A DNA stretch of 64,000 bases from an uncultured Verrucomicrobiae bacterium (GTDB taxonomy: Bacteria > Verrucomicrobiota > Verrucomicrobiia > Limisphaerales > UBA11358), in the NCBI GenBank assembly GCA_963789335.1, contig CAWBKH010000013.1:3174-67173 (forward strand). Direction: 5' to 3'. Positions 14,872 to 41,522 of the stretch are shown here, piece by piece (position 1 is the stretch's first letter; the number at the start of each line of letters is the position of its first letter). The translations under genes and the position numbers were made by a program. The notes beneath the pieces were generated by a model that worked only from the letters and a program-made list of their open reading frames with translations, was not told where the DNA came from and searched no databases.

Positions 14872-14888
14872 GTTACAAGTCGGTTACA
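14872..14888 (-). promoter_or_regulatory. Pho-box-like direct repeat upstream of the porin
   Basis: Gene sense TGTAAC-cgact-TGTAAC (11-bp period). Confidence 0.6.
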
Positions 14889-15035
14889 AACCGCAGGCGC
14901 TTTGTTCCAGTCGGTCTGTAGCAATGAAATAAAACCAAAATCAGGAACGAAGGTGGAGCAGAGGCCGCGTTCTTCCAGAAAAACCAATCATCCGGCTTTC
15001 TACCGAAAGCCGCTACGTTTGTAATTTCCAACAGA

Positions 15036-16259
15036 TCACCATCGCAGGACACGATAGCACCGTTGGGGAGTAACGGCGGGATCCGTCAGTTGCAGCATGC
15101 CGCCAGTGCCGGCGTGCAGCGGCAGCGATCGCCAGGCGCTATCGGTGAGGGAGTTTTTATATTCCAACTGATAGACCCGTCCGTTTTGCGTCGGCAGAGA
15201 GACGCTAAAACCGTTCGTTCCAAGAATGGGCTGGGTCAGCACCGCCTGGATCACTGGCGGACCGTTTCCCACCAATGCCAGACTATGCACGTCCCCGGCG
15301 GCAATCTGCACCACATCATTCAAGTTGGTCGGCACGATGTTTTGTAAGTAATCCACGTTAGTATCCGAACCGACACCGGCGCCCCAAGCCCACACGGTTC
15401 CATCGCTCTTCAATGCCAAGCTGTGCCAGCCCCCTGCCGCGATGGCCACGATATTGCTCAAACCCGTGGGAACATTGGTTTCACCGTAAGTGTCCAGCCC
15501 CCACGCAACCACAGTTCCGTTGGCCAGAAGGGCAAGATTGTGAAATCCCCCTGCCGCGATGGCCACGACGTTGCTCAAGCCGGCGGGAATGTTCGTCTCG
15601 CCATCGTCGTTATCTCCCCACGCAAACAAGGTGCCGTCCGACTTCAGCACCAGGTTATGATAGCCACCGGCGGCGATGGCCACCACATTGGACAAACCGT
15701 TCGGAACCGTTCCCTGGCCGTAATCCACATTCACGGAACCTTGCCCGCCCCAAGCGGCCAGGGTGCCATCGGATTTCAAAATCAGACAATGGTAAAAGCC
15801 GCACGCGACGGCCACCACATTGCTTGGATTTCCGGGGACATCAAGCTGTCCGTAGGTATAGTCCCCAACCACAGCCACCGTGCCATCCGACTTCAGTGCC
15901 AGACTGTGCAGTTCCCCGCAGGCAATCGCCACATAATTACTCCCCGCCGGAAAATCGGTCTGGCCCACCGAATCATCGCCCCAGCCTTGCAACGTGCCAT
16001 CGGCCTTCACTGCCAGACTTTGACGCCAACCGCCCGCTACTTGGACGGCATTAGTCAGATTGGAGGGGACCATAGACTGGCCATAATTATTTTGGTCCGG
16101 CGGATTGGAGACGAACGTTCCCGCTCCCCACGCGACCACGGCGGTTCCGGCGCGGACATCCAGCGCCAGACTGAACACCGCCAACATCAAGGCTGGCAAT
16201 TTCAAAAACAATCTGCCCCGGCACCCGGTCACGCATCGTATGCTGCTGATAACGGCCAT
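15036..16259 (-). CDS. Secreted RCC1-repeat beta-propeller protein with a C-terminal 'RxYRV' domain
   Basis: Repeated IAAGGxHxLALKSDGTVxAWG units; C-terminus PTQNGRVYQLEYKNSLTDSAW...GTGGMLQLTD...QRCYRV. Confidence 0.85.
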   Translation of the reverse strand: MAVISSIRCVTGCRGRLFLKLPALMLAVFSLALDVRAGTAVVAWGAGTFVSNPPDQNNYGQSMVPSNLTNAVQVAGGWRQSLAVKADGTLQGWGDDSVGQTDFPAGSNYVAIACGELHSLALKSDGTVAVVGDYTYGQLDVPGNPSNVVAVACGFYHCLILKSDGTLAAWGGQGSVNVDYGQGTVPNGLSNVVAIAAGGYHNLVLKSDGTLFAWGDNDDGETNIPAGLSNVVAIAAGGFHNLALLANGTVVAWGLDTYGETNVPTGLSNIVAIAAGGWHSLALKSDGTVWAWGAGVGSDTNVDYLQNIVPTNLNDVVQIAAGDVHSLALVGNGPPVIQAVLTQPILGTNGFSVSLPTQNGRVYQLEYKNSLTDSAWRSLPLHAGTGGMLQLTDPAVTPQRCYRVLRW

Positions 16260-16318
16260 TGTTCATACCTATAGTTCCCGTGGCTCGGCGCTGTCAAACA
16301 AGCTCATGCGTTTTGCTT

Positions 16319-16335
16319 GTTACAAATGGGTGACG
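16319..16335 (-). promoter_or_regulatory. Pho-box-like direct repeat upstream of the RCC1 gene
   Basis: Gene sense CGTCAC-ccatt-TGTAAC. Confidence 0.55.
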
Positions 16336-16715
16336 GGCTGGCTTGGTGGAAACTGACGACTGAAAGTATGTCCAGGTCCGGTTCGGTCATTTCAATCTGC
16401 CGCGGAAAACAGTCAAGAAGCGTTAAGAGTCGGCGGTTGGCAAGCCGGCGCTCCAGGGTTTTTCAATCCGGCCAACGTTACCTTCTTGCGACGAAGCCCT
16501 CCAAATCTCCAATCCGCGCTCCGGAATCATTTTAAGTTTAATGCAAACAACAACTTACAGTTTCGGCTTTCAAGTCTTAAAATAGACAACCCATGTCCTC
16601 TAACTTGAAGCGAATCAGTGTTGACCCATGATAAAGTTTTGCCTGTTGAACCACTTTGTGGTCAGGCACGGACAAATTGGAGAATGTCAAACAACAGCAA
16701 CAGCATTAAAATTAT

Positions 16716-17522
16716 ATGAAAAAATTAACCAGCGCAGCAATACTGATTGGCGGAGCCATCCTGGCTTCCCAATCCGCGTTCGCACAAACACAGACGTTCA
16801 CGGCGAACGACCTGTACTTTGGGTTTGAAAATTACAATGGGGGCGCGACGGAGGATTACATTATTGATCTCGGCCCGGCTTCCGGCATTGTCGGCGGTTC
16901 CTCCCCGGTCAATCTCAGCGGCGACTTTTCACTGAGCGACTTCAACGCGGTCTTGGGCGGCTCGGCCAGCCTCAATGCGGGCGTGGTTGGCGGCAGTCAG
17001 TACAACCCGCCCGGATGGGACATTTATGCCACGCAGTTGCGCAGTGGCGGACCCGGAAATCCGGCAATGCCAGGCTCCGTTATGAGCACTTCAGAGGGTC
17101 CAATCTCGACGTTTGGCGAATCTCAAATTTCAACCTCGATAGCGGCGCTTTCGACCCTGAATGCGCCCACGGCGGGAATCGGCCTTCTGGACACCAGCCT
17201 GTCGTGGACTTCCGACGTTGAGCCTGCTCCCAATCAGGCCATTCAAACTTTTTATGGAAACTCCGGCATCAATCCCAGCTCGGCCATCGGCAGCGGCGGC
17301 GTGCTTTACGAAGACCTCTGGAAGGCGACGGCCACCTATACCCAAGGCGGTGCCTTTCAATATGAGGGCTATCTTACACTGGACCTCAGCGGCGGCAGCC
17401 CGAACCTGACCTTCACACCCAACCCGACTGCGGTTCCCGAACCGACCGTCCTTGGTTTGCTCGGCGGCGCGGGGTTTTTGCTTCTTTCAATTCGCCGCCG
17501 GTTGAGCCGCAACAAGGCCTGA
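16716..17522 (+). CDS. PEP-CTERM sorting domain protein
   Basis: Signal peptide; C-terminal VPEPTVLGLLGGAGFLLLSIRRR. Confidence 0.9.
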   Translation: MKKLTSAAILIGGAILASQSAFAQTQTFTANDLYFGFENYNGGATEDYIIDLGPASGIVGGSSPVNLSGDFSLSDFNAVLGGSASLNAGVVGGSQYNPPGWDIYATQLRSGGPGNPAMPGSVMSTSEGPISTFGESQISTSIAALSTLNAPTAGIGLLDTSLSWTSDVEPAPNQAIQTFYGNSGINPSSAIGSGGVLYEDLWKATATYTQGGAFQYEGYLTLDLSGGSPNLTFTPNPTAVPEPTVLGLLGGAGFLLLSIRRRLSRNKA

Positions 17523-17597
17523 TTCGGTTTTGCAACTCATAAACACAAAACAGAGAACAAACAAACAAACAAACAATACAACAAGACCAACAAGATT

Positions 17598-18932
17598 ATG
17601 AAAATCAGCACTCACATCACTGCCGCGCTGCTCGCCTTGGGAATCGTCTCCCAGGCCGGCGCCGATCCTGTCGTTTACCTGACCGGTTCAACGGCCTTCC
17701 GCTCCACGGCTGACACAGCGATATTGAACAACACCGGCACCAACAACGGCGGCTTGTTTGATGCCGGTTCCGTCACCTATGTGACGTATGGCAACGCCAA
17801 TCCACTCAGCGCCAATTACCTGGTTGTGCATGGCACCATCAATAACGGCGCAACGCCCGTCTATCTTGACGTGGCGTGGAGCGGTTCCGAAGCCGGCATC
17901 GCCTCAGCCTGCAATACCACGCTTAAAAATACGGATCGCAACGGCAATGTCATCAATCTGGCCGGTTCGCCGGAGCAATGGCTTAACGTGAACGCGGTTG
18001 CGCTGAACGGCAGCGCCATCTCCACCAATCCGCCATCCTACCTGTTGGAAACCAACTCGGACGGAACAGCCGATTACCACGGAGGGGATCTGGCCCAGGC
18101 GGACACGTCCCAAGCGGTTTCCTGGACGCCATTTGTGGCCAACACGCAGCAAGCTATAACAAACTACGGCACTGAAGGCGTGGTCACGTTCGCCATTTCG
18201 AAAAATGTCCAGACAACGCCCTCGCAGGCCTGGCTGGATTGCACAAACATAACCATTCCTCAACTGACTGTCCTGACCGGTGCTGGCTTCCTGCCGGCAG
18301 GTTTCATAAGCGGGAATACAAGCGACGACAGCCAGTTCGTTTACCTTACGGGACGTAACCGGGGTTCCGGCACGCGGATGAACTTCTTGGCAGACCAACA
18401 TTACGGCACCAAAAACGGCGTCCAACAGTATTCCGTCGGCTTGGGAATTGAGGAGCCGGCGAATAACACGCTCATCCTCACCAACGAGGGCAACAACGGT
18501 TATGAAAGCGGCGGTGGAACTGTAAAAGCGCTGTTCATCCCCGGCAGTTGCCAGCAGACCGATCCATTTACCGGAAACAGCGGTTGGTTTGTCATCGGCT
18601 ATGCCAGTCCGGGAGATCTTCTGAATCCTGCCAACACTGTGGGCGTCAATAATTGGCTGACCGTAGATGGCGTGCCTTCTAATAACCAGACCATTGAGAA
18701 CGGCCAATGGTGGTATTGGGGCCATGAACATCTGTATGGCAAATACCAGATCAGCGGCATTCAGCAAACCTTGGGCACCGATCTGTTTAATGCCATCGTC
18801 AACACGCTTAACGTTCAGCAGCTTGGACTCCTTCCGGGAAATCACGATAACGCCATAGCCAAGCAATACATGAATTGCACCAAGAGCAGCGACTCGGCTT
18901 ATCCCACCCCAAGCGCCCCGGGTAATCCTTAA
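17598..18932 (+). CDS. Secreted PstS/DING-like periplasmic-binding-fold protein
   Basis: Signal peptide; N-terminal LTGSTAF, GRNRGSGTR (compare PstS R-x-x-GSGT), SGG and IGY motifs. Confidence 0.55.
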   Translation: MKISTHITAALLALGIVSQAGADPVVYLTGSTAFRSTADTAILNNTGTNNGGLFDAGSVTYVTYGNANPLSANYLVVHGTINNGATPVYLDVAWSGSEAGIASACNTTLKNTDRNGNVINLAGSPEQWLNVNAVALNGSAISTNPPSYLLETNSDGTADYHGGDLAQADTSQAVSWTPFVANTQQAITNYGTEGVVTFAISKNVQTTPSQAWLDCTNITIPQLTVLTGAGFLPAGFISGNTSDDSQFVYLTGRNRGSGTRMNFLADQHYGTKNGVQQYSVGLGIEEPANNTLILTNEGNNGYESGGGTVKALFIPGSCQQTDPFTGNSGWFVIGYASPGDLLNPANTVGVNNWLTVDGVPSNNQTIENGQWWYWGHEHLYGKYQISGIQQTLGTDLFNAIVNTLNVQQLGLLPGNHDNAIAKQYMNCTKSSDSAYPTPSAPGNP

Positions 18933-18972
18933 TCCGCTGGCAGCAAAGGGTTGAAAAGCGGTTTAACAACAC

Positions 18973-19004
18973 GGCCAGCGCGGACACCCTCCGCGCTGGC
19001 CTTT
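18973..19004 (+). terminator. Rho-independent terminator
   Basis: 12-bp perfect stem GGCCAGCGCGGA-caccc-TCCGCGCTGGCC followed by TTT. Confidence 0.65.
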
Positions 19005-19051
19005 CGGCTTATGCGAACGTATAATCAAAAGCCTTCCGAGTTGCCGCTAGG

Positions 19052-19137
19052 TTTTGGAGTGCGCCAGCCCTCTGGCGCTTTCCACACTGCGGCGGCATCG
19101 AGCGGCAGAGGACTGCCGCAGTCCAAGACGCTGCCGC
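19052..19137. repeat. REP doublet (GGAGTGCGCCAGCCCTCTGGCGCT family)
   Basis: The same unit recurs at 50468 and 52457; units are palindromic and in inverted arrangement. Confidence 0.75.
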
Positions 19138-19173
19138 GCCCGCGTTGGCCGATAGTTTAAACGAAGTATAAAA

Positions 19174-20133
19174 GTGAAATTAAAGATTTCCATCTGGCTG
19201 AATATGACTTTGCTCGGCGGCCTGATTTTTGTCCTGATGAACCAGCGAAAGGAAGAAACCACCGCCGCGCCGGTTTTATCTGAAGCCAGACCGCCGTTGC
19301 GGGCGATTGCCACGCCCGCAGCTCCGGCGTCTTCGGACATGGAAACCGCGCCTTTTCATTGGAGCCAGCTTGTGTCTGCGAAGGATTATCGGGCTTACAT
19401 CGCCAATCTGCGCGCCATCGGCTGTCCGGAACCGACCATCGAGGACATTGTCAGGGGCGACACCGACCGGGCGTTTGCCTGGGAACGCAGTCAACTGGAT
19501 CTGGACGGCGCCGGCACGGGCCCGTGGTCGCAGGCGCGGGAGATGCAATTGGTGGCCAGCTTGTTGAGCGGCCAGCCGCCGGTTGAAACTGCCGCCTTGG
19601 CGCAAAGCGCGGAGAATCCGATGGATGGAAACAGCGGCAACAACGAAGCCTCTCAAACGGCCACCCCGCCGCAAGTTGCGGCGAATCAAACGCCGGAGAA
19701 TACGGGTGGCATGGTTGCTCAAGTTCCTGTTCCGTCACAAAATGCCGAAAGGACAGCGCCATCCTACCCGTTGTTCCTCCAGAATGTGAATTGGAGCGCC
19801 TTGGGGTTCAATGCCGACCAGCAGGCCGCCATCGCGCAGGTGCGGCAGCAGTTCTTGGGCGAGATTAACGGTCTGAGCCAAAACCCCAACGATCCGGCGA
19901 GCCAGAATTCTAATCCATCGGTTCCCGACTCCAACAACCCGGCTCCCCTGACGCAATGGCAAACGGCCCTGCAAAACGCCGATGCCCAGTTGCTCGCGTC
20001 GCTGGGCAGCGATGGTTACGAGGCTTATGTGCAACAGCAATACCATAGCTGGTATCAACCCCAGGTGGTCGCGGCCAATGCGGAAGGAAAGCCTCTGGTA
20101 ATTAACCCGGATGCGTTCTCGGTTTCACCGTAA
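19174..20133 (+). CDS. Membrane-anchored hypothetical protein
   Basis: N-terminal hydrophobic segment; PFHWSQL...DYRAYIANLRAIGCPEPTIEDIV motif; helical C-terminus. Confidence 0.7.
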   Translation: MKLKISIWLNMTLLGGLIFVLMNQRKEETTAAPVLSEARPPLRAIATPAAPASSDMETAPFHWSQLVSAKDYRAYIANLRAIGCPEPTIEDIVRGDTDRAFAWERSQLDLDGAGTGPWSQAREMQLVASLLSGQPPVETAALAQSAENPMDGNSGNNEASQTATPPQVAANQTPENTGGMVAQVPVPSQNAERTAPSYPLFLQNVNWSALGFNADQQAAIAQVRQQFLGEINGLSQNPNDPASQNSNPSVPDSNNPAPLTQWQTALQNADAQLLASLGSDGYEAYVQQQYHSWYQPQVVAANAEGKPLVINPDAFSVSP

Positions 20134-20286: not shown

Positions 20287-21222
20287 TCACTCGCTGCGCT
20301 TTTGTTGGTTCGTAGGATTTTGGGCGTGAAACTCGGCCACCATCCGCTCCGCTTCGGCAAATTGTTCGGGCGTGAGCGCATGATTTAGGTTGTATTCTTC
20401 AAAGGAATGCCGGCCGGTTGCGTTCCCCTGTTCTGCGCTCAACGCGAACCATTTGTAAGCCCGCACCTTGTCATGGGGAAGCCCGCCGTCGCCATCCTCG
20501 TACATCAAGCCCAGGTTGGCCTGGGCCATGGCGTCGCCCCTTTCGGCCGCCCGGCGATACCATTTGGCCGCCTCCATCAAATCCGTCTTCACGCCCCAGC
20601 CGTTTTGATACAAAAAAGCCAGATTGTTCATGGCGCCCACGTAACCCTGTTCAGCCGCCTTACCGAGCCATCTGGCCGCCTCGGCATAGTTGACATGTTT
20701 GGTGTCACCGGGATATTCGCCGTTGAGATAGAATTGCCCCAAGGCGTTTTGCGCATAGGTCTGGCCGTGTTCGGCGGATTTCTGCCACCAAGCCACGGCT
20801 TCATCAAAATCCTGTGGCACGCCGTTGCCGTGGGCATAAGCGTAACCCAGGCAGTATTGAGCCAGCGAATCTCCCTGCGCGGCCGCCTTGCGATACCACT
20901 GGAGCGCTTGCGGAAAATCCTGTTTGACGCCCAGGCCGCGCGCGTAATAAGAGCCGAGGGCGGTCTGGGCATGGGCGTACCCTTGATCGGCGGACTGGCG
21001 GAGGTACTCAGCCGCCTTGGCATAATCCTGCGGAACCCCTTCTCCATTTTCATAACACTGGGCAAGCTCATACTCCGCCCGGGCATTGCCTTGGCCTGCC
21101 GCTGACTGGACGGCTTGAAAATGGGAGCGCGGCGAAGAAACACAACCGCCCGTGGCCACAATCAGTAATGCCGATGCCAGCCGGATGCCCGCTATTGGAT
21201 ATCTACGCATGTTTAATTCCAT
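20287..21222 (-). CDS. Sel1-repeat (TPR) putative lipoprotein
   Basis: About seven AQxxLGxxYxxGxGVxxD..A..W...AA.QG repeats; lipobox-like ATGGC. Confidence 0.9.
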   Translation of the reverse strand: MELNMRRYPIAGIRLASALLIVATGGCVSSPRSHFQAVQSAAGQGNARAEYELAQCYENGEGVPQDYAKAAEYLRQSADQGYAHAQTALGSYYARGLGVKQDFPQALQWYRKAAAQGDSLAQYCLGYAYAHGNGVPQDFDEAVAWWQKSAEHGQTYAQNALGQFYLNGEYPGDTKHVNYAEAARWLGKAAEQGYVGAMNNLAFLYQNGWGVKTDLMEAAKWYRRAAERGDAMAQANLGLMYEDGDGGLPHDKVRAYKWFALSAEQGNATGRHSFEEYNLNHALTPEQFAEAERMVAEFHAQNPTNQQKRSE

Positions 21223-21349
21223 ATTGTGACGGGATTCAGATTATTGGGCGCCAGCGCTTCAAACAAGTTACGATTCGGAGTCGAAGGAAAGAAGGTTTGT
21301 TACAATCACGTGATGCGCTGCAAAGTTTGATTCGTCCCGAAGCCGTTTC

Positions 21350-22534: not shown

Positions 22535-22686
22535 TTAAGTTTGGCTTGTCATTGTTCGTTTCGTGGGCTGCCCGTGGTTCAGAGCGGCCAGCCTTTTTTG
22601 TCTGAATCGAAAAGGATGGCTTCGACAATGGGCCGGCGGCGTTCCATCGCTGACCGGCGTTCCCTTTCGCGCTATACCGTACCCGC

Positions 22687-23556: not shown

Positions 23557-23587
23557 CCGGAGGGAGGGTAATGCGTCATTTTCAATG

Positions 23588-23637
23588 GTAGGGACGCCGC
23601 GCTGCGGCGTCCGGACAGCGCAGCGCGCTGTCCCTAC
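23588..23637. repeat. GTAG-type REP doublet
   Basis: GTAGGGACGCCGCGCTGCGGCGTCC / GGACAGCGCAGCGCGCTGTCCCTAC. Confidence 0.75.
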
Positions 23638-23749
23638 AAATTGATATTCAGCGGCAACCCGGCCACCAACGCGGGAAACTTCCACCAATCCATCGGACAA
23701 TCTGTCGGCAGCGCGCGGCCTTCCGGGTGAGGCCGAAAGCCTTTTACGT

Positions 23750-23838
23750 GGCCTGCCGCGTGAGGCGGAGCCTTTTGCGCGGCACAACCGCGTGGCGTAG
23801 CTTTACGCGGCATTTTTCCGGCTGTCAACCGGCAGTCC
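23750..23838. repeat. About 90-bp direct repeat, copy 1
   Basis: The 18-bp GGCCTGCCGCGTGAGGCG and the 37-bp TTTACGCGGCATTTTTCCGGCTGTCAACCGGCAGTCC are identical to those in copy 2. Confidence 0.85.
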
Positions 23839-27028: not shown

Positions 27029-27038
27029 GCAAACGAAT

Positions 27039-34400: not shown

Positions 34401-36282
34401 AACCGTCATCCAAGGTAATGTCGTTGCCCGCAAACAAGCTCAAGGTGCCGGGGGTGCTCGCGTCTGGAGCCCACTGCGAACTCAGCTCGATGTTGTAAAG
34501 ACAAATTTGCGAATAGGGCAATAAATCACTTACATTCAAGTTGGGGCTTGAAGAGGAGGTGGACGTGGCGCTGGAGGAAAGTGTCAGACCGAAGGGATTG
34601 ACGAACAGACGGGAGAATTGTGCGGCGGCCGTGCCATCAATCGTGGAGTTGACCGTGTTTGCAGTGGTTCCATTGCCAAAAATCTCAATAAAACCGTTCG
34701 GTCCGCCATTATTTCCCGAAACGGAAATCTTGGAGCCTGTCGGGTCTGAAAACGTTCCTGCCGAATTCAAGACCACAAACCCACCGGGACTCGTTGTGGT
34801 CGAATCGCCAGCGGCGGAAATGACGGAACTGGCGCCCAAATTCAGGCTGCCGCTGCTGCCACTCGCGTAAATTTCAATGGCTCCATTCGCGTTGCCGATT
34901 GAATCGGCTCGGAGAACTCCGTTCTGATTCACCGTTGTCGCGCTCATGGCAATCCGCCCGGCGTCCGCTTCAATTCCCGCGCCGGGGTCCACCGTGATGG
35001 TGTTTCCAGCCAGTAGTGACAGCGCGCCGATGATGCCGCTCTTTGGGGTCAAATTCCATGGCGAACTCAGTTCGATGCTATTGGCCGCCTGAAGATTGAT
35101 TTGCGACAACCCGGCGGACAAGGAATTGATGTTGAGAGCGAGTTGGCCCGCTACGGGACTGCCGTCGGCATTCAGTGTTATATCCGCCGTGTCAATGGAA
35201 AGGCTGGCGTCCGCATAGCCGGCACCGGCCAAGCCGTTGATGCTGGATTGAAAGGCGCTCATCTGGGGCGCGGAAATCGTCACTTGTCCACCATTGCCGC
35301 CCTGCGTGCCCCCGGCGACATTGATGACTGAGCCGTTTTGATCGGAAAAGCTATTGCCGGATTGAATCGTCACCGAGCCGCCGGGGCTGGTGCCTGTCGT
35401 GTCTCCATTGGCCGAGATGACGGAGCTGGCGCCCAGATTGACCGAGTCGCTCCCGACCAGTTCGATGGTTCCGTTGACGTTTTGGGCGGAGTTGGCCTGG
35501 ATCAATCCCCCTTGATTGACGATTTGGGCCGCCTGTAGAATGACGCTGCCGGCATCGGCAACCAATTTGCCTTCATTGTCCACCAAGCCTTGAGGCAGGG
35601 TGACTTGCGCGCTTAATCCGCGCCCGTCCGGGGACGTGGAAACTAGGACCGTTTGACCGGCGTAAAGACCGATGTTGCCGCCCGGCGCGGCAATCGTCCC
35701 ATTGTTCTCAACGTCATTGGCGATGAGAAAAGCCGAACCGCCGCCGGCAATGTTAATCTGGCCGTAGTTGATGATTTTGGCGGTGGGCGGCGGCGCATTA
35801 AAAGACCAGGGTCCGCCGCTGGAAAGGTCGAACGCAGGCGTGGAAGCCGTGGTCATGACCAAGCCATGAGCGGAAATGGCCGCCGAGCCGCCAACGGTGA
35901 AGCCGTTTGGATTTTGCAGCACCAAATAGCCATTGGCGCTGAGATTCCCGTTGATACTGGAGGCGCTCGGGTTGTTGGGGTCGTTGATGTAGTTCCAAGT
36001 GACCGAGGAGGACGAAGGTTGGTTAAAGACCGTGGCTTCACCAGCGCTGATATTGAAACTTTGCCAGTTGATAAAAGCGCTGGCGGAAGTTTGATTTATA
36101 GTCAATTGCGAACCTGATGTGCCGATGGTAGCCGTGCCTTGGGCAACAACGCCGCCGGTCGGATTGGCGTGGAGGTGAAGAGAGTTCCCTCCCCAAACCA
36201 GCAGAACAATGCCAGTCCCGACCAACCTGCAATAATGAAAGAAAACCTTGTTCACGGTAACACGCCTATCATCCGCCAGCAT
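31465..36282 (-). CDS. Filamentous-haemagglutinin-like TpsA exoprotein (about 1600 aa)
   Basis: Signal peptide, then a TPS domain (ANPTGG...INWQSFNI...NPNG); G/S/T/N-rich beta-helix repeats; C-terminal K6 tract and GRVTVILP. Start uncertain (36282 or 36255). Confidence 0.9.
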   Translation of the reverse strand: MLADDRRVTVNKVFFHYCRLVGTGIVLLVWGGNSLHLHANPTGGVVAQGTATIGTSGSQLTINQTSASAFINWQSFNISAGEATVFNQPSSSSVTWNYINDPNNPSASSINGNLSANGYLVLQNPNGFTVGGSAAISAHGLVMTTASTPAFDLSSGGPWSFNAPPPTAKIINYGQINIAGGGSAFLIANDVENNGTIAAPGGNIGLYAGQTVLVSTSPDGRGLSAQVTLPQGLVDNEGKLVADAGSVILQAAQIVNQGGLIQANSAQNVNGTIELVGSDSVNLGASSVISANGDTTGTSPGGSVTIQSGNSFSDQNGSVINVAGGTQGGNGGQVTISAPQMSAFQSSINGLAGAGYADASLSIDTADITLNADGSPVAGQLALNINSLSAGLSQINLQAANSIELSSPWNLTPKSGIIGALSLLAGNTITVDPGAGIEADAGRIAMSATTVNQNGVLRADSIGNANGAIEIYASGSSGSLNLGASSVISAAGDSTTTSPGGFVVLNSAGTFSDPTGSKISVSGNNGGPNGFIEIFGNGTTANTVNSTIDGTAAAQFSRLFVNPFGLTLSSSATSTSSSSPNLNVSDLLPYSQICLYNIELSSQWAPDASTPGTLSLFAGNDITLDDGSGIQVGNNWTVNLTAGTLPSSSQPASGSDGIYLNGTAYIQAANGDANHNAINLYAANEVIVNSGAIRTIGGGNIDVTTEYGNVNTGDNTSGFNFRWNAPYYTPFQVSSSALETINYNQSNLGGISTAAGGNVTINAGGDVVSFPTTMVAANDPGTGAFGPEAGNVTINAGGSVYGNYVVMNGTGIINAGQNIGVGQSGDNQNVALSLATGSWSLNAQGDIYLQEVRNPNGVFNNTINPYTYVATAGTHYFDYGPQASVTLTAGNGVYLTGYQIPRPNDAIPLIMPPILNINAGPGGIVLQTPLAAESDVTLPNSDITLFASPDGNLQINDRGDFSSGNDDGSDASLTLSASSSAVNDNPVVINIGGNMENISLQVSKPAQISVAGDMIGCTFYGNNLNASDVTSLTVGGQIYNPGSFNFITLDQGLSSLPLQDLAPGTVNSWSQILLGAVNAAQLATLSPLSADPSNPSQWASYALNNAGMFPSIGSELTTELSYNSATKTLTAIGPLSLDLLTDLEQPSLTVLRYGPNGYPLLDSSGHFVTDTVTLTPSTDYAQLASLYQASHQGSQGAPPLGFVKGGYTVGGPGEFDINAGSISLGNSKGILSVGGATINVVTLDNDQTVNGIIVPSLNMPSSTIAALGGGDVNVTGDGANSQGISMDLGSQDLLPFEAQIMNASNLGLGIYTTGGGDVNVTALGTINIDSSRIATLNGGDVSITSLTGDINAGSGGTVAIPVNFYSPAYSGPEPVEYVPANGIVADTLANASQVPGAARLPGNITVTALQGNIIANLGGISQEAFGGTLSASGPDSPTITLTASGSPDLGEGNIILGTSGVIGVNVNATASGTITGLIISQRNADINAAQSFAGTVLSGGTATFSGGGTISGTIVAIGGVNTSGGGSLSATANVLSTSVNGGAGTLATSSSATAASQSAAGQTSAENQQQVASNSTGNDDEKKKKKKAALVRSVGRVTVILPKAS

Positions 36283-36315: not shown

Positions 36316-36332
36316 GTAACATTCAGGTGACA
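36316..36332 (-). promoter_or_regulatory. Pho-box-like direct repeat directly upstream of tpsA
   Basis: Gene sense TGTCAC-ctgaa-TGTTAC, between the tpsB stop and the tpsA start. Confidence 0.6.
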
Positions 36333-36334
36333 AG

Positions 36335-38914
36335 TCAGAACTGCGCCGTCAGCGCAAAATTAAAGAACGGCTGGTATGCCGAAACGGTGCCGGCGCTCAA
36401 AAGCGGCCAGGAGAAGAGAAATTGTGCCTGCCAGTGGGACCCGGTTGCGGCGGAGAATCCAAAACCCGTGCCCCAAAGCGGGGTTCTGGCCTGACGACCC
36501 TGGGGGGGATCCAGCAAATAGACGTCTGCATAATCCATATAGACCGAGCCGCGAATCGTCAGCGGCGCCCCGTCATAGACGGAGCCGACCACATGCGCCG
36601 GCGTTTGCTGTTCAAGGCTGACATGCCAGCCGGTGTCGCCGAAAACCTCGCCTTCGTGATAGCCCCGGACGCTGTTGACGCCACCCGCGCCATATTGTTC
36701 GGTACTGACCAACGGCTCGCTGGACCATTGGCCGTCCGCACGGATGGACGTCGTCCAATTGGTGTAAAAATCAATTTCCTGCGAGAAGCTGGGCCGGAGG
36801 ACCACCCAATGGCCGGTGGATTGAGCCGAGCCTGTTATAAATTGGAGACTTTTTTCACCCTCAAGTTCCACGCCTTGGTTGGTAAGCGTAGAGCTGGAAT
36901 ACCAAAGATTGGCGCTCAAGCCCAATCCCCAAGTGGCGGGACCAAACGCATCTTGCAGGCTCGCGCTGTAATTCAGCGATAAAGGCAAATAGTCCAGCGT
37001 CGGGTAGGTCGCCGGTACGGCGGATTCTTCATTCGCCGGGGGGTTTGCAACAATTTGGCCTGAAGAGTTTTTATAATAAGTCAAGTCGGTGAAAATATTG
37101 GTTCCATAGGAGCTCAAAGAATAGACTTTGTAATCAAGTCCCCCGGATAAGGAGGAATGGACACTGCCAATTTCCGGCAACGGTTTGGCCAACTGGAATC
37201 CAACATCTTCGTTAATCGTAACGTCCTGGTGAACTACTTGAGAGGTGAGCTGGCGCACAAAGGGAATGTCAAACAGGGTCTCACTGGAGATGGTTTCAAC
37301 GCCGGTGTCAATGGTGGCGCGGCTGCCGTACACAGTCAGTTCAGGCTGGCCAGAAGGCGGCGGCAGCCGGAATTGGCGCGTGGCTTCGCTGTAGCCGAAA
37401 CTGCCGGGTTTGCTCGCCACCACGTCCTCGATTGGCTCCGGGTTGCCCAGCGGCAGGCGGTAAAATCCACTGTAGTAGGCGACGATAGGCTGGTCGTAAA
37501 AATTCCATTGGCCACCCTGCTTATAGAGCTCCGGTGAGAAACCGTATTGGACGCCGAGCGAATTTTCGGCCTGCCAGAGATTGTCATAGACGGCCGAGCC
37601 GTTCACGCGCAGGTCCGGTGTGCCGGGCGAGTTTTGATTGTTGAATTCCACCTTGGCGTGGAGCGGCAGCCGGTCCTTGATGTTGAGGGTGAGTTCGCTG
37701 GTGTCTGGCACCGGGCCGGGACCGATGACGGGATAAATTTGCCGATCCTGATTGGCGTTGGCCCGGTTCAGTTCGGCATTGAAGATCGGGCCGTTGAGCA
37801 CCATGTTCGTGTGCAGGCTGGGCAACGCGCGCATCACGTTGTTGGAACTGAAGTAGCGGTTGCCAGTAACTTTGATGTCCGCCAGCCGGCCTTCCAACAC
37901 CCGCAATTTCACGGTCGCATTGGTGAGTTTCTGTTGGGGCACGTCCACCGCCACCGTTACATAGCCGCGCTCATGGTACGCCTTCCCCAGTTCGGTCACC
38001 ACCGTCTCAATCCCATCGAAGCTGACATTAGTGCCAAAAGCGCCGTCTATGTTGGTAATCGCCTCACCGATGGCCGCCGACGGCAAAATGGAGTTGCTGT
38101 TGATCAGATATTTTTCCACCTCAAACCGGGGACCGGCATTGGTCGAAACCACATGAACCCGGGTGTCTTTCGCCTCGGCATTCAACTCGGTCATCTTCCG
38201 ATGCAAGGCGGCGATCGCTTGGTACATTTCTGTGGGAGTGGCTGGTTTTGTGGCGAAGTTGATTGCCGGCGGCGCCGCATTGGTGGTGGCGGAGGCAACC
38301 GGCTTTTGGGGAGGAACGGGGGCGGCAGCCGGCGGTTTGGACACAATTTCCACACCGTTGCTCAGACTCAGGTAACGTTCACCAGCCACCACGATTTGTG
38401 GAATGGCTGTTTGAGCAACGTTAAACGTGACGATGCCGTCGGTGATTTGCTCCGGCACGAAGGCGATGCTTATCGCCGGATAACCTTGATTATGGTATTC
38501 CAATTGCAGGTCTGAGGCCGCCTGCACTATTTCCTCCAAACTGAGGTTCGGCCCGGCGTATTTGGAAACGATGGAGGCCACGGTATTCGTAGGAAGTAAT
38601 GGACTGCCTTCTACGACATAGGCCCGGACATTGAAGTGAGGAGCCGAGTTGCTTTCGACCATGACTGTTGCTTTGGCTGCCAGCAAGGAGGCCGGGGAGT
38701 TTTGTGAAGGAACAGATTCGGCTGCGGACGTTTTCAACGTCGTTCCTTGTACCCAGCAGCAAACAAGCAACAGCAGGCAAACGGCGCGGCTGCACTCAAA
38801 CCTCGGGCAAAAAAGGGAAAGCCGATCAGTCATATTTGCATTCGTTCGGCGCATGTGAATGCAACGCGACGGCAGAAGCGTGTTTGGTCGCGCAACATTG
38901 ATTGAACAGCCCAT
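36335..38914 (-). CDS. ShlB/FhaC/HecB-family TpsB outer-membrane transporter with an extra POTRA-like domain
   Basis: POTRA segments (F-x-V-x-x-Y...Y...GY...V-x-VP-x-Q), VRGYHEG motif, C-terminal ALTAQF. Start uncertain. Confidence 0.9.
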   Translation of the reverse strand: MGCSINVARPNTLLPSRCIHMRRTNANMTDRLSLFCPRFECSRAVCLLLLVCCWVQGTTLKTSAAESVPSQNSPASLLAAKATVMVESNSAPHFNVRAYVVEGSPLLPTNTVASIVSKYAGPNLSLEEIVQAASDLQLEYHNQGYPAISIAFVPEQITDGIVTFNVAQTAIPQIVVAGERYLSLSNGVEIVSKPPAAAPVPPQKPVASATTNAAPPAINFATKPATPTEMYQAIAALHRKMTELNAEAKDTRVHVVSTNAGPRFEVEKYLINSNSILPSAAIGEAITNIDGAFGTNVSFDGIETVVTELGKAYHERGYVTVAVDVPQQKLTNATVKLRVLEGRLADIKVTGNRYFSSNNVMRALPSLHTNMVLNGPIFNAELNRANANQDRQIYPVIGPGPVPDTSELTLNIKDRLPLHAKVEFNNQNSPGTPDLRVNGSAVYDNLWQAENSLGVQYGFSPELYKQGGQWNFYDQPIVAYYSGFYRLPLGNPEPIEDVVASKPGSFGYSEATRQFRLPPPSGQPELTVYGSRATIDTGVETISSETLFDIPFVRQLTSQVVHQDVTINEDVGFQLAKPLPEIGSVHSSLSGGLDYKVYSLSSYGTNIFTDLTYYKNSSGQIVANPPANEESAVPATYPTLDYLPLSLNYSASLQDAFGPATWGLGLSANLWYSSSTLTNQGVELEGEKSLQFITGSAQSTGHWVVLRPSFSQEIDFYTNWTTSIRADGQWSSEPLVSTEQYGAGGVNSVRGYHEGEVFGDTGWHVSLEQQTPAHVVGSVYDGAPLTIRGSVYMDYADVYLLDPPQGRQARTPLWGTGFGFSAATGSHWQAQFLFSWPLLSAGTVSAYQPFFNFALTAQF

Positions 38915-39481
38915 GCCGCAGCCCGCCGGTCACGACTGATTCCCCCCACATGAACTTTGGGCGGAATTGATGGTGGACAAAATGATCAGATTCATTGCTC
39001 GCAATAACACTCTGTCACATGACATGGCTCTCCCGCGACTTGCGGCTTAGGCAACACCTACAATGCTGTGATCAACACAGACGGTGAAAATTACACCACA
39101 CCAAACCAGTCGGCGCAGCCCGAAGGCGGGCACCTGAACATTCACGTCAGAGAAAGCTGGGCAATTTATATTACAGGCTTTTGTCGGAATTGTGACAATC
39201 CCGAAACAAAGAGCCTGGCGAAAACCGATGGAGTCCTTGAAAACTGAACACTGCCTGTGCCTAGCGTCACTGTCGGATGGTCTCCGCGCGACAAACAACG
39301 GATCAAAAATAAGAAATCAAGTTTCCAGTATTTTTCGGAAACGCCACTGGTTCGTAACATTCACTTCTCAAGATGAGGCGTTGCCACGCTGGCGTATCAG
39401 GAGAGCGGATGAAGAAGAGTTGTTTGGCAACCGCCAGAATCGCAATTAAGTCACTAAAGACACTTTGGAAATTCTGAGAGA

Positions 39482-40354
39482 ATGAAGCGACCGCAGCGTA
39501 CATACGAACCTCATTTGGTCATTCGGGAAATTTCGGTGCCGCCAGGGGGAGAATGGGTGCCGCGATCGCCCGGTTGGTCGCTGATTCAAATGGCCCGCGG
39601 AACCGGTTATTACCTTCAACCACAATTGAGTCAAGAGCTTAAAACAGGAACGGCTCTTTTGGTTGCGGGTCATGGGCAAGGAAGCATTCGCGCCAGCCAA
39701 TTGGGCGGGTTGTCACTATGTGTGTTCAACGTGATTCCGGCGCGGCTTACCGGCCTGATCACCTTGGGCGAACAGGATTTTCTCGAGACGGCGGCCGCCC
39801 GGAAGGAATTTCCCCTTCGAATTCTTCCACCGCAAAATCCGGTTGCCGTGAAAATGATGGAACTGTACGCCGGTCGGAGTTCGGCTGGATTGTTATTCCG
39901 ATTGAACCTGCTTCAACTTTTTGCCGAGGTTTTCGGCAGTGAATTGGAGCAAGCCGCGTCCAATTGGGAGACCGCCGACGCCAAGGAGCGGTTGCGGGTG
40001 TTATTGGAGCGGACGCCGTCGGCTGAGTTGCTGGAAATGAGCTTCGACGAGTTGGCGCGGATGACCCATTGCACGTCGCGGCATCTAAGCCGGATTTTTC
40101 GCGAGTTGGTTGGCATGTCATTTCGCGACAAGCGCGCCGAACTTCGACTGACGCGCGCCCGCGACCTGCTCGCCACCAGCAGATCCAAGGTGGTGGAGGT
40201 GGCCTTGGAGAGCGGATACAAGTCTTTAAGTTTGTTCAATCTGATGTTCACGCGCCATTTTGGAACCAGCCCCGGCCGGTGGCGGCAGAAATATCGGAAC
40301 AACGGAAACGGCAAAAGCATTCGAAGCAAAAGAGTGCCACCGTTCGCGATTTAA
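39482..40354 (+). CDS. AraC-family transcriptional regulator
   Basis: LARMTHCTSRHLSRIFRELVG...VALESGYKSLSLFNLMFTRHFGTSPGRWR. Confidence 0.9.
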   Translation: MKRPQRTYEPHLVIREISVPPGGEWVPRSPGWSLIQMARGTGYYLQPQLSQELKTGTALLVAGHGQGSIRASQLGGLSLCVFNVIPARLTGLITLGEQDFLETAAARKEFPLRILPPQNPVAVKMMELYAGRSSAGLLFRLNLLQLFAEVFGSELEQAASNWETADAKERLRVLLERTPSAELLEMSFDELARMTHCTSRHLSRIFRELVGMSFRDKRAELRLTRARDLLATSRSKVVEVALESGYKSLSLFNLMFTRHFGTSPGRWRQKYRNNGNGKSIRSKRVPPFAI

Positions 40355-40504
40355 AGAAAATCGGAGGGTGCTTCCGGCGTGTCCATGCGGGCGTATGATC
40401 GGCGATCCGAGGATTTCCGTTCAAAGCCGACCTGACGAATCTTTTCAAAATTGTCGCAATTTTGACACATGGCAGTCACATCCCGCCATTAGCTTCTTAA
40501 GCTG

Positions 40505-41410
40505 ATGATTGTTGAGCGACATCTCATCTTGCAGGAGTTGACGCTGCCGCCCTCCACCGAATGGCCTCCCCGTTGCAATGGATGGCTGATGGTGCGTGTG
40601 GCGGTGGGAACGGGCTACTGGTTGCAACATGGTGTCGAACCCCGGCAATTGACGGTTGGTGATGGTTTGATTGCCACTCACAATGTTGACGGTGTCATCC
40701 GGGCCAGCCAGCTTGGCCCGCTGAAACTGCAGTTTTTCACCGTCCAATTGCAATACCTCAACGGCGTGCTCACCGTGGCGGAATGGCAGCAACTGGAGAT
40801 TGACCCGAACAATCCAGCGCCGCCCGTTTCCCTTTTCAAGGCTGAAGAACCCATCGGAAAAAGATTCATGCGGTTGGCCGACCAAACACGCAGCAACCGG
40901 TTGCCTATGCGCTGCGCGTTGCTGCAGCTATGGGCCAACGCCGTGGCCGGCCTGTTGCCGGCCTCGGTTTCTGCTTCCACCAGCGGCAATAAACTCCGCG
41001 ATCATATCCGGGAACTGGTCGGGCAAATGACCGAAGCCGAACTTTCCGAACATTCCTTGACGGAGCTGGCCCGGCAGTTGCATTGCAGCGAACGCCATTT
41101 CAGCCGCTTGTTCCGCGAGGAATTCGGCGTGCCATTTCACGCGCGGCAGATCGAATTGCGCCTTCAACGCGCGCGCCAATTGCTGGCGGAACCCGATGCC
41201 AAAATTATTAATGTCGCCTACGACAGCGGCTACCGGCACCTCGGCCTGTTCAATGCCTTGTTTAAAAAGCGTTTTGGCCAGACGCCCGCTGAATGGCGCC
41301 GGCAATACCTTCGTAAAGGCCATTCGTCTTCCCATAGAAATCATCCCTCTCATTTGGCTGAACGTGCCGCCCTCTTGCTTGCGGTACTCAGCCTTCATTT
41401 CATTTTGTAA
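40505..41410 (+). CDS. AraC-family transcriptional regulator (paralogue of the upstream gene)
   Basis: LARQLHCSERHFSRLFREEFG...VAYDSGYRHLGLFNALFKKRFGQTPAEWR; the N-terminal domains are similar (HLxxxE..PP..EW.PR..GW...GTGY). Confidence 0.9.
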   Translation: MIVERHLILQELTLPPSTEWPPRCNGWLMVRVAVGTGYWLQHGVEPRQLTVGDGLIATHNVDGVIRASQLGPLKLQFFTVQLQYLNGVLTVAEWQQLEIDPNNPAPPVSLFKAEEPIGKRFMRLADQTRSNRLPMRCALLQLWANAVAGLLPASVSASTSGNKLRDHIRELVGQMTEAELSEHSLTELARQLHCSERHFSRLFREEFGVPFHARQIELRLQRARQLLAEPDAKIINVAYDSGYRHLGLFNALFKKRFGQTPAEWRRQYLRKGHSSSHRNHPSHLAERAALLLAVLSLHFIL

Positions 41411-41505
41411 GTATGGACGCCTGCCTCTGTAGAATGAATGGAACGTTGGTTGACATGCACTTTGACTTGGTCGCGGACAACGCATCCAGTCGCCATGAAT
41501 TTGAA

Positions 41506-41522
41506 TGTTACCTATTTGTAAC
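41506..41522 (+). promoter_or_regulatory. Pho-box-like direct repeat upstream of exbB
   Basis: TGTTAC-ctatt-TGTAAC. Confidence 0.6.

What the first reader, a model, noticed from the sequence alone, without database searches (positions are those of the whole stretch)
14872..41522. One 11-bp-period direct repeat precedes four genes spread over 27 kb
In gene sense: porin TGTAAC-cgact-TGTAAC; RCC1 CGTCAC-ccatt-TGTAAC; tpsA TGTCAC-ctgaa-TGTTAC; exbB TGTTAC-ctatt-TGTAAC. The consensus is YGTHAC-C-N4-TGTWAC, always oriented with the gene, and there is a weaker copy at 21350. This matches the geometry of PhoB/PhoP boxes. It ties both halves of the split module into one regulon and fits the PstS-like gene. 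No OmpR-family regulator is in the island, so a host regulator would act on it.
Basis: partly seen in the sequence, partly recalled or inferred. Interest (0 to 1): 0.75.

Follow-up and report, generated by a model that had tools for sequence, protein, structure and literature searches.

The report
Pho boxes on a phosphate-starvation module
The repeated 11-bp-spaced motif is very probably the binding site of the cell's own phosphate-starvation regulator PhoB, so a conserved set of outer-membrane, secretion and phosphate-binding genes in this soil Verrucomicrobium belongs to its phosphate-starvation response; this is a textbook mechanism found in an unstudied group.

Summary
YGTHAC-C-N4-TGTWAC occurs four times in the window (0 expected), each time in gene sense before porin, RCC1, tpsA and exbB. 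The whole 4.35-Mb genome has one further copy, inside a coding region.

The Pho-box reading is well supported.
- The same 11-bp-period repeat lies before the best PhoB/PhoR pair (three units), before porin-pstSCAB-phoU, and before a glycolipid-synthase gene of the same genome.
- It is footprint-conserved before the phoB, pst and glycolipid-synthase orthologs of relatives.
- A matrix trained only on those foreign promoters ranks the four window sites 5, 7, 34 and 35 of 8.7 million positions.
- The module recurs in at least six congeners, with boxes before the same genes.
- Weaker conserved boxes precede tpsB, araC1 and Sel1.
- The phoB box persists in genomes without an araC2 ortholog, which argues against the local AraC regulators as binders.
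- An unannotated 444-aa module gene has a PstS phosphate-binding fold.

Caveats: the total motif count equals a backwards-read control, so the signal is in placement. There are no binding or expression data.

Verdict: a new member of a known kind, of moderate interest.

The parts
14872..14888 (-). Pho box before the porin gene (TGTAAC-CGACT-TGTAAC). A degenerate third unit, CGCCAC, lies at 14861-14866.
   Evidence: The independent matrix ranks it 7th in the genome. Orthologous boxes occur in G004, G016, G014, G010, G006, G017 and G018.
16319..16335 (-). Pho box before the RCC1-repeat gene (CGTCAC-CCATT-TGTAAC).
   Evidence: Rank 5 in the genome. Conserved before the RCC1 gene in G004 and G014.
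36316..36332 (-). Pho box in the gap between the tpsB stop and the tpsA start (TGTCAC-CTGAA-TGTTAC).
   Evidence: Rank 35. Exact box in the same gap in G004, G016, G015, G018, G017, G001 and G011; near-exact in G003, G010 and G014. Absent from a paralogous TPS clade.
41506..41522 (+). Pho box before exbB (TGTTAC-CTATT-TGTAAC). A TATAAA -10-like hexamer follows 20 nt downstream.
   Evidence: Rank 34. Conserved in G004 and G015.
21299..21315 (-). Weaker box (CATCAC-GTGAT-TGTAAC) 77 nt before the Sel1-repeat gene.
   Evidence: 11.4 bits. The G015 ortholog has two exact boxes.
39339..39360 (+). Weaker box before araC1 (CGCCAC-TGGTT-CGTAAC).
   Evidence: 11.5 bits. Stronger orthologous boxes in G004 (16.7), G014 (17.5) and G018 (22.1 bits).
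39179..39211 (-). Weaker box before tpsB (TGTTTC-GGGAT-TGTCAC-AATTC-CGACAA), 265 nt before the ATG.
   Evidence: The same TGTTTC-N5-TGTCAC lies before tpsB in G004, G014 and G018.
40449..40481 (+). Candidate three-unit degenerate box before araC2.
   Evidence: 12.9 and 11.8 bits. Only a weak counterpart in G004 (10.6 bits). Uncertain.
13184..14824 (-). Outer-membrane porin, a distant paralog of the porin that heads the pst operon.
   Evidence: Pfam Porin_5 3.5e-32 and Porin_O_P 1.4e-4. 27% identity to the pst-operon porin.
15036..16259 (-). RCC1-repeat beta-propeller protein with an N-terminal signal-like segment.
   Evidence: Pfam RCC1_2 2e-50; sequence.
16716..20133 (+). Three genes: a PEP-CTERM protein (16716-17522), a PstS-fold protein (17598-18932) and an unknown 319-aa protein (19174-20133). 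No box was detected in their sense.
   Evidence: The gene order is conserved in G004, G014 and G015.
20287..21222 (-). Sel1-repeat protein.
   Evidence: Pfam Sel1 2.7e-59.
31465..36282 (-). TpsA exoprotein (about 1600 aa; start at ATG 36282 or GTG 36255). Only the N-terminal TPS domain is recognisable.
   Evidence: Pfam TPS 8.8e-21; start candidates; no NCBIfam hit on the C-terminal half.
36335..38914 (-). TpsB outer-membrane transporter.
   Evidence: Pfam POTRA_2 7.7e-25 and ShlB 4.8e-12.
39482..41410 (+). Two AraC-family regulators, araC1 (39482-40354) and araC2 (40505-41410).
   Evidence: Pfam HTH_18. Conserved within the module in relatives.
41726..44106 (+). exbB (41726-42598), exbD (42595-43011), tonB (split over two frames near 43290; N-terminal part 43015-43485, C-terminal domain in 43299-43682) and a second exbD (43648-44106).
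11984..12058 (+). tRNA-Thr(CGT). Its last 21 nt recur at 44756-44776, so the pair brackets all the boxes.
44756..44776 (+). 21-nt direct repeat of the tRNA-Thr 3' end, the putative right end of the island.

Best explanation
The repeats are Pho boxes, that is, tandem binding sites for the chromosomal response regulator PhoB (C2:1357207-1357935, paired with a PhoR-type kinase).

Inferred mechanism. Under phosphate limitation, phosphorylated PhoB binds head-to-tail to two or three 11-bp units with core YGT(C/A)AC. From there it activates transcription of the porin, RCC1, tpsA and exbB-exbD-tonB genes. Through weaker boxes it also activates tpsB, araC1 and Sel1.

The genes form a conserved Limisphaerales-type module for the cell surface. 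It comprises an OprO/P-like porin, a two-partner-secretion exoprotein, a TonB energiser, a PstS-fold binding protein, and PEP-CTERM and RCC1 proteins. Its most likely role is phosphorus acquisition or surface remodelling during starvation. The AraC regulators inside the module are probably themselves PhoB targets that add a second layer of control.

Shown here: the sites, their placement and orientation, their presence at the phoBR, pst and glycolipid-synthase promoters, and their conservation across species. Inferred: PhoB binding, activation, phosphate dependence and the module's function.
For: 1. Same genome. A three-unit repeat lies directly before the best PhoB hit, which is followed by a PAS-HisKA kinase. 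A repeat lies before porin-pstSCAB-phoU. Another lies before an MGDG-synthase/PHP gene. Glycolipid synthases are classic Pho-regulon members (PMC4796936).
2. Footprints. The exact repeat is kept before phoB in 16 of 25 relatives examined, 13 of them in the same genus, while the flanks diverge. It is kept before pstS or porin-pstS. A five-unit array is kept before the MGDG-synthase orthologs.
3. Independent matrix. A matrix trained only on relatives' phoB, pst and MGDG promoters gives these ranks in G000: phoB 1 and 3, pst 2, MGDG 4, window sites 5, 7, 34 and 35, out of 8.69 million positions. With the first, phoB-only matrix, a reversed-genome null gave 0 hits above 18 bits against 10 real hits.
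4. Module conservation. There are 20 exact boxes in about 170 kb of module DNA from six congeners. All of them precede porin, RCC1, tpsA, exbB, Sel1 or araC1 in gene sense. About 0.9 would be expected from the genome density.
5. Orthology of PhoB. In order-level relatives the ortholog follows phoU directly (loci L030, L034, L037).
6. Geometry. It has the same 11-bp period as the E. coli Pho box (7-bp CTGTCAT repeats with a 4-bp spacer; established knowledge) and shares its TGTCA core.
7. Precedent. The P. aeruginosa TPS pair pdtB-pdtA is controlled by PhoBR under phosphate limitation (PMC5422565).
8. Function. A module gene has a PstS phosphate-binding fold.
Against: - There is no binding or expression evidence. 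Only soil and sediment DNA runs hold this sequence.
- The regulator and the kinase score below NCBIfam's equivalog cut-offs: PhoB 238 bits against 296, PnpS 384 against 400, PhoR 306 against 334.
- Total motif counts equal the backwards-read control.
- The distance from box to the -10-like element and to the start codon varies. The exbB box lies about 20 nt before a TATAAA, one helical turn further than in E. coli. The RCC1 box lies upstream of a TTGACA-like hexamer. No transcription start is known, and the sigma-70 scan found nothing convincing.
- Two window sites contain GTTAC, which is absent from the training sites, and they rank only 34 and 35.
- The PstS-fold gene itself has no detectable box in its own sense.
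Confidence: 0.82

Rival explanations
1. The AraC-family regulators encoded inside the module (39482-41410) bind the direct repeats, and the module is an AraC regulon rather than a PhoB one. AraC-type proteins carry two helix-turn-helix units that contact successive major grooves, and they often bind direct repeats that overlap the -35 region.
For: Two AraC genes lie in the module, next to the exbB and tpsB boxes. At least one AraC homolog lies in the module region in five of the six congeners examined; none was found in the G015 region.
Against: The same repeat precedes phoBR, pst-phoU and the MGDG-synthase gene, far from the module. The three-unit phoB box persists in G002, G008, G009, G013, G020 and G022, which have no araC2 ortholog at E<=1e-30. 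araC1 itself carries a conserved box upstream, which fits AraC being a target rather than the binder. Only araC2 was searched in relatives, so a distant araC1-like protein cannot be fully excluded.
Confidence: 0.05
2. Another of the four OmpR/PhoB-family paralogs of this genome recognises the module's TGTAAC-rich boxes. In that case the module responds to a signal other than phosphate, and the GTCAC boxes at phoB are a separate specificity.
For: Four further full-length OmpR-type regulators exist. Module boxes favour GTAAC or GTTAC in the promoter-proximal unit, whereas phoB boxes are almost purely GTCAC.
Against: The pst promoter (CGTCAC/CGTAAC) and the MGDG promoter (CGTAAC/TGTAAC) of the same genome mix both variants. 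Relatives' module boxes often read GTCAC, for example TGTCAC-CTGAA-TGTCAC before tpsA in G004 and G016. Orthologous positions therefore switch between A and C freely.
Confidence: 0.08
3. The four matches are chance, or a compositional by-product of a repeated or mobile sequence, and have no regulatory role.
For: Genome-wide counts of the relaxed and strict patterns equal those of the backwards-read controls. The consensus was derived from the same four sites it describes.
Against: All four sites are intergenic, in gene sense and within 27 kb. They are recovered by a matrix that never saw them. Orthologous promoters in other species keep the box while the surrounding DNA diverges. Spacer and phase preferences are confined to intergenic DNA.
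Confidence: 0.02

Closest known systems
Pho box / PhoB regulon of E. coli and other Proteobacteria
   Same: Direct repeats of a 7-bp unit with a 4-bp spacer, giving an 11-bp period, and a shared TGTCA core. Present before pstS and before phoB itself (autoregulation). Oriented with the gene. Arrays of two to five units.
   Different: The unit here is YGT(C/A)AC(C/A), and A or T is tolerated at the fourth position. Where a -10-like hexamer can be guessed, the box sits about 20 nt upstream of it (exbB), not 10 nt. The organism is a Verrucomicrobium (Limisphaerales by the names of best hits), a group for which I found no described Pho box. Binding has not been shown.
pdtB-pdtA two-partner secretion system of Pseudomonas aeruginosa
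   Same: A TpsB/TpsA pair induced by phosphate limitation through PhoBR, with an intermediate regulator. In P. aeruginosa this is the PUMA3 sigma/anti-sigma system (PMC5422565). Here AraC regulators possibly play that part.
   Different: Here tpsA has its own box 3 nt after the tpsB stop. The intermediate regulators are of the AraC type, not ECF sigma factors. The TpsA passenger has no recognisable domain. No sequence orthology to PdtA was tested.
OprO/OprP phosphate-starvation porins
   Same: An outer-membrane porin with a weak Porin_O_P match lies behind a Pho box. A paralog heads the pst operon.
   Different: The best family is Porin_5. The match to Porin_O_P is marginal (21.6 bits against a cut-off of 20.9). 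Anion selectivity is untested.
PstS phosphate-binding proteins
   Same: The predicted fold of the 444-aa protein matches PstS structures only (E 8e-8, TM 0.64-0.72 normalised by target). The R-x-x-G-S-G-T loop aligns with the genome's own PstS.
   Different: No sequence-family hit. About 180 extra residues. Not next to pstCAB. No box of its own. The profile comparison with PstS is not significant (E 0.18).
Pho-box-preceded glycolipid synthesis genes (agt/plcP lipid remodelling)
   Same: The MGDG-synthase-like gene of this genome carries one of the best boxes (PMC4796936 for the precedent).
   Different: Here the glycosyltransferase is fused to a PHP phosphoesterase domain. It lies outside the window and serves only to anchor the regulon assignment.

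Membership tests
Pho box (PhoB operator) | Two or more direct repeats of a short unit with an 11-bp period | tested here: met
   In intergenic DNA the same-strand hexamer spacing is highest at 11 nt, with smaller rises at 12, 21-22 and 33. The 5-nt spacer is preferred.
Pho box (PhoB operator) | Present before the pst operon and before phoB of the same genome | tested here: met
   These are ranks 1-3 of the independent matrix.
Pho box (PhoB operator) | Conserved at orthologous promoters while the flanks diverge | tested here: met
   phoB, pst, MGDG synthase, module genes.
Pho box (PhoB operator) | Replaces the -35 element, about 10 bp upstream of the -10 hexamer | tested here: inconclusive
   No transcription start is known. 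The exbB box ends 20 nt before a conserved TATAAA. The RCC1 box lies upstream of a TTGACA-like hexamer. Porin promoters have a degenerate third unit. The consensus scan found no full sigma-70 promoter on the gene strand.
Pho box (PhoB operator) | Bound by phosphorylated PhoB; downstream genes induced by phosphate limitation | not testable with these tools
   Only DNA runs from soil and sediment hold the sequence.
PhoB/PhoR two-component system (regulator C2:1357207-1357935) | Receiver plus winged-helix regulator whose best family match is PhoB, scoring above the curated cut-off | tested here: inconclusive
   The best NCBIfam hit is TIGR02154 PhoB, but at 238 bits it is below the 296-bit cut-off.
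PhoB/PhoR two-component system (regulator C2:1357207-1357935) | Adjacent PhoR-type kinase (PAS, HisKA, HATPase) | tested here: met
   Pfam domains. The best NCBIfam hits are the phosphate kinases PnpS (384 against 400) and PhoR (306 against 334), both just under their cut-offs.
PhoB/PhoR two-component system (regulator C2:1357207-1357935) | Genomic linkage to pstSCAB-phoU | tested here: met
   Orthologs follow phoU directly in G023, G024 and G019. phoB, pstS and the porin share a contig within 7 kb in G024.
Two-partner secretion (type Vb) | TpsA with an N-terminal TPS domain next to a TpsB with POTRA and ShlB/Omp85 barrel domains | tested here: met
PstS phosphate-binding protein (ORF 17598-18932) | Match to the sequence family (Pfam PBP_like_2 or NCBIfam PstS) | tested here: not met
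   No family hit. hhalign against the genome's own PstS gives E 0.18.
PstS phosphate-binding protein (ORF 17598-18932) | Two-lobe periplasmic binding fold closest to PstS, with conserved phosphate-binding loops | tested here: met
   The model has pLDDT 80 and pTM 0.82. The top 16 PDB matches are all phosphate-binding proteins. TGSxAF, SGS and RNxGSGT are invariant or nearly invariant. That these loops correspond to PstS's binding loops is my reading, apart from the one loop aligned.
tRNA-integrated genomic island | Direct repeat of a tRNA 3' end bracketing the element, with an integrase inside it | tested here: inconclusive
   The 21-nt repeat of the tRNA-Thr(CGT) 3' end is at 44756. The integrase (10796-11902) lies outside the bracket, between two tRNA-Thr genes. 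Relatives hold the module at other sites without this repeat. An empty-site test failed.

The most novel reading that the evidence does not exclude
A transferable cell-surface module, bracketed here by a tRNA-Thr repeat and found at different chromosomal sites in congeners, carries its own Pho boxes. It therefore plugs into whichever host PhoB it meets. Inside it, PhoB also drives AraC regulators, giving a feed-forward cascade. The module contains a previously unrecognised 440-aa PstS-fold family that works with an OprP-like porin, a TonB system and a TPS exoprotein. Together these would form a phosphorus-capture apparatus distinct from pstSCAB.
Probability: 0.3. Interest if true: 0.55.

Novelty: new member of a known kind. 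Interest (0 to 1): 0.4.

Why it matters
This gives a usable Pho-box model for Limisphaerales-type Verrucomicrobiota, which are abundant soil bacteria with almost no genetics. It assigns about a dozen hypothetical surface genes to the phosphate-starvation response. It also flags a large unannotated family (more than 500 members) as probable phosphate-binding proteins. The regulatory logic itself is textbook. The value therefore lies in annotation and in pointing to a candidate phosphorus-acquisition apparatus, not in a new principle.

Tried and rejected
- ECF-sigma -35 element (TGTAAC-like). Rejected because the unit is repeated two to five times in 11-bp phase and lies at a variable distance from -10-like hexamers.
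- A PstS homolog in the window by sequence. tblastn with the genome's own PstS found nothing. The fold search was needed.
- RCC1 protein as a query in genome contigs. It returned generic RCC1 proteins from many phyla. This was useful only for the names of the best hits, Verrucomicrobiota and Limisphaerales.
- Empty-site test for the island, using the ORF next to the right repeat (44783-45802). Matches in relatives carry internal stop codons, so the ORF is a poor anchor, and I abandoned the test.
- RNA evidence. No RNA runs hold the region.
- Rfam scan of the window. Only the two tRNAs were found, and nothing in the long exbB leader.
- Sigma-70 and terminator consensus scan. No convincing core promoters lie behind the boxes.
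- Genome-wide over-representation of the raw pattern. It is not over-represented against the backwards-read control.

Full report
OBSERVATION

The pattern YGTHACCNNNNTGTWAC matches the window four times, at 14872-14888(-), 16319-16335(-), 36316-36332(-) and 41506-41522(+). Dinucleotide shuffles give none.

Pfam identifies the downstream genes:
- a Porin_5/Porin_O_P porin (13184-14824, -)
- an RCC1-repeat protein (15036-16259, -)
- a TpsA exoprotein (31465-36282, -), preceded by its TpsB partner (36335-38914, -)
- exbB-exbD (41726-43011, +)

Every box is in the sense of its gene. The boxes end 47, 59, 33-60 and 203 nt before the start codons. The tpsA box begins 3 nt after the tpsB stop codon.

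In the whole assembly (4.35 Mb in 13 contigs; the window is C13:3174-67173) the strict pattern has only one further copy. That copy lies inside a LacI-type coding region.

The 'weaker copy at 21350' is not there. A one-mismatch copy lies at 21299-21315(-), 77 nt before the Sel1-repeat gene.

IS IT MORE THAN CHANCE?

The raw count is not. The relaxed pattern YGTHAC-N5-YGTHAC occurs 23 times in the genome, and its backwards-read control occurs 20 times. Counts are similar in the 18 other genomes searched. The strict pattern equals its reversed control, 5 against 5.

The placement is.
- 14 of the 23 hits fall in the 12% of the genome that my crude ORF map leaves intergenic, against 4 of 20 for the control. 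The count is 16 after correcting two window sites that sit in spurious ORFs.
- A 5-nt spacer gives 14 intergenic pairs, against 0-7 for spacers of 2-11 nt.
- In intergenic DNA the same-strand spacing of YGTMAC hexamers is highest at 11 nt, with smaller rises at 12, 21-22 and 33. Coding DNA shows no peak at 11.

WHAT IT IS: THE SAME-GENOME TEST

The genome has five full-length OmpR/PhoB-type regulators, and none is on the window's contig.

The best one (C2:1357207-1357935) has PhoB as its top NCBIfam hit (238 bits, below the 296 cut-off). It is followed by a PAS-HisKA-HATPase kinase. The top hits of that kinase are the phosphate kinases PnpS and PhoR, both just below their cut-offs. Directly upstream lies CGTCAC-CCAAT-CGTCAC-CTGGT-TGTCAC.

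The only pst operon is a Porin_5 porin, pstS, pstC, pstA, pstB and phoU at C5:261.5-267.6 kb. It is preceded by CGTCAC-CCAAT-CGTAAC with further hexamers 22 nt away on either side. TTTAAC-CTGAT-TGTAAC precedes pstS itself.

A further top site precedes a gene that fuses an MGDG-synthase-like glycosyltransferase to a PHP domain. Glycolipid synthesis genes behind Pho boxes are a known part of phosphate-starvation lipid remodelling (PMC4796936).

WHAT IT IS: THE CROSS-SPECIES TEST

- phoB. I examined the phoB orthologs of 25 relatives, taken from a set of 30 genomes (18 of the same genus, 12 of the same order). Sixteen keep an exact two- to four-unit YGTCAC repeat at a fixed place before phoB, while the surrounding DNA differs. 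Thirteen of the sixteen are in the same genus. In three more distant relatives phoB follows phoU directly.
- pst. The pstS or porin-pstS promoters of relatives carry the box.
- MGDG synthase. The orthologs keep a five-unit array in 11-bp phase.
- Independent matrix. I trained a matrix on these foreign promoters only, with no G000 sequence and no module site. It ranks the G000 genome as follows: phoB 1 and 3, pst 2, MGDG synthase 4, the window's RCC1 site 5, the porin site 7, the exbB site 34 and the tpsA site 35, out of 8.69 million positions. With the first, phoB-only matrix, the reversed genome gave no hit above 18 bits against ten real ones.

THE MODULE

tblastn of the window's proteins against about 170 kb fetched from six congeners shows a recurring gene set: exbB-exbD-tonB, araC, tpsB-tpsA, Sel1, PEP-CTERM, a 444-aa gene, a 319-aa gene, a 366-aa gene, and RCC1-porin. 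The set is uninterrupted in G014.

In G000 about 9 kb separates the 366-aa gene from tpsA. This stretch (22.6-31.4 kb) holds a methyltransferase, a Ser/Thr kinase and unknown genes.

The fetched regions hold 20 exact boxes, against about 0.9 expected from the genome density. All of them precede porin, RCC1, tpsA, exbB, Sel1 or araC1 in gene sense.

Porin orthologs and the tpsA clade nearest the window keep the box. A paralogous TPS clade lacks it.

Lower-scoring sites are also conserved. One precedes araC1 (window 39339-39360; 16.7-22.1 bits in G004, G014 and G018). One precedes tpsB (window 39179-39211; TGTTTC-N5-TGTCAC in G004, G014 and G018). Candidates before araC2 (40449-40481) and before the 394-aa gene of the insert (29551-29572) are uncertain.

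THE 'PstS-LIKE GENE'

No window ORF resembles the genome's PstS by sequence.

The 444-aa ORF (17598-18932) has no Pfam or NCBIfam hit. It has more than 500 'hypothetical' homologs in Verrucomicrobiia and Limisphaerales.

Its AlphaFold model (32-sequence alignment, pLDDT 80, pTM 0.82) matches phosphate-binding PstS structures in the top 16 places of the PDB search. The best hit has E 8e-8 and TM 0.70-0.72 normalised by target.

The only stretch that hhalign aligns with the genome's PstS is the R-x-x-G-S-G-T loop, and that alignment is not significant (E 0.18). The fold assignment is therefore supported, sequence-family membership is not, and ligand binding is inferred. I found no box in the sense of this gene.

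MECHANISM

The best-supported reading is PhoB-dependent activation under phosphate limitation. Tandem head-to-tail PhoB dimers would bind on one face of the helix, as established for E. coli PhoB.

The geometry is the same as in E. coli and the TGTCA core is shared. Where a -10-like hexamer can be guessed (a TATAAA conserved before exbB in G000 and G004), the box ends 20 nt upstream of it, not 10. At RCC1 the box lies upstream of a TTGACA-like hexamer. Without transcription starts this point stays open, and the consensus scan gave nothing convincing.

A terminator-like hairpin between the RCC1 stop and the porin box fits separate promoters for the two genes.

PhoBR control of a TPS pair has a precedent in P. 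aeruginosa pdtB-pdtA (PMC5422565).

RIVALS

- The module's two AraC regulators. They are the obvious local candidates. However, the three-unit phoB box persists in six genomes that lack an araC2 ortholog. araC1 itself carries a conserved box. The same motif also serves phoBR, pst and the MGDG synthase elsewhere in the genome.
- A different OmpR paralog with a GTAAC preference. This is disfavoured because the pst and MGDG promoters mix GTCAC and GTAAC, and orthologous module boxes switch between them.
- Chance. This is excluded in practice by the conservation.

ISLAND QUESTION

The last 21 nt of tRNA-Thr(CGT) (11984-12058) recur at 44756-44776 and bracket every box. The integrase lies outside the bracket.

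In relatives the module sits elsewhere, without this repeat. It lies near tRNA-Cys in G014, near tRNA-Leu in G018, and close to the pstS and MGDG-synthase genes in G017 and G011 and to phoB in G011. Mobility is plausible but not shown. My empty-site test failed.

VERDICT

This is a standard PhoB/Pho-box system described in a phylum where I found none reported. It gains new regulon members and a probable new PstS-fold family. All regulatory claims rest on sequence and comparative evidence only.

Noticed in passing
window 17598-18932 (+): A 444-aa 'hypothetical' protein with no family hit and more than 500 homologs in Verrucomicrobiia. Its predicted fold matches only PstS phosphate-binding proteins at the top of the PDB list. 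The TGSxAF, SGS and RNxGSGT loops are invariant or nearly invariant.
   Followed up: yes
window 43015-43682 (+): tonB downstream of exbD is split over two reading frames near 43290 in this assembly. The TM and Pro-rich part is in one frame and the TonB_2 C-terminal domain in another. The G004 ortholog is one intact ORF. This is either an assembly error or a real break. The ORF 43531-44157(-) is only the antisense shadow of a second exbD (43648-44106).
   Followed up: partly
genome C7:14148-16142 (-), box array at about 16177-16235: A gene fusing an MGDG-synthase-like glycosyltransferase to a PHP phosphoesterase domain. It lies behind a five-unit 11-bp array (GTGAAT, GTGAAT, GTTAAC, CGTAAC, TGTAAC) that is conserved across the genus. 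This is a likely lipid-remodelling member of the Pho regulon.
   Followed up: partly
genome C8:8581-14353: Boxes at C8:9546-9562(-) and C8:11280-11297 flank three genes: a PEP-CTERM protein, a prepilin-type N-methylation (DUF1559-like) protein, and a 900-aa protein with a Shr-like heme-binding-type domain. These are possible further Pho-regulon surface proteins.
   Followed up: no
genome C1:69600-69621 (+): A box-like site (TTCCGTCACCCAATTTTAACAA, rank 13) lies 44 nt before a PilT-like ATPase gene.
   Followed up: no
genome C2:1357970-1358010 (-): A run of 7-nt repeats (AATCGNA, about five copies) directly upstream of the three-unit phoB box. G004 and G016 have AATCATA-type runs at the same place.
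   Followed up: no
window 22600-31400: A block of about 9 kb (unknown genes, methyltransferase, Ser/Thr kinase, 439-aa and 394-aa unknowns) interrupts the module in this genome. It is absent from the uninterrupted module of G014. A weak box-like triple (29542-29572, -) precedes the 394-aa gene.
   Followed up: partly
window 41523-41725: The exbB box is 203 nt from the start codon here and about 206 nt in G004, but only about 40 nt in G015. The leader has no Rfam match. It contains a possible 52-codon ORF (ATG at 41566) whose conservation I did not test.
   Followed up: partly
window 44783-45802 (-): A 339-aa ORF next to the right-hand tRNA repeat. Its matches in relatives nearly all contain internal stop codons, so it may not be a real gene, or it may be decaying.
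   Followed up: partly
   Followed up: no
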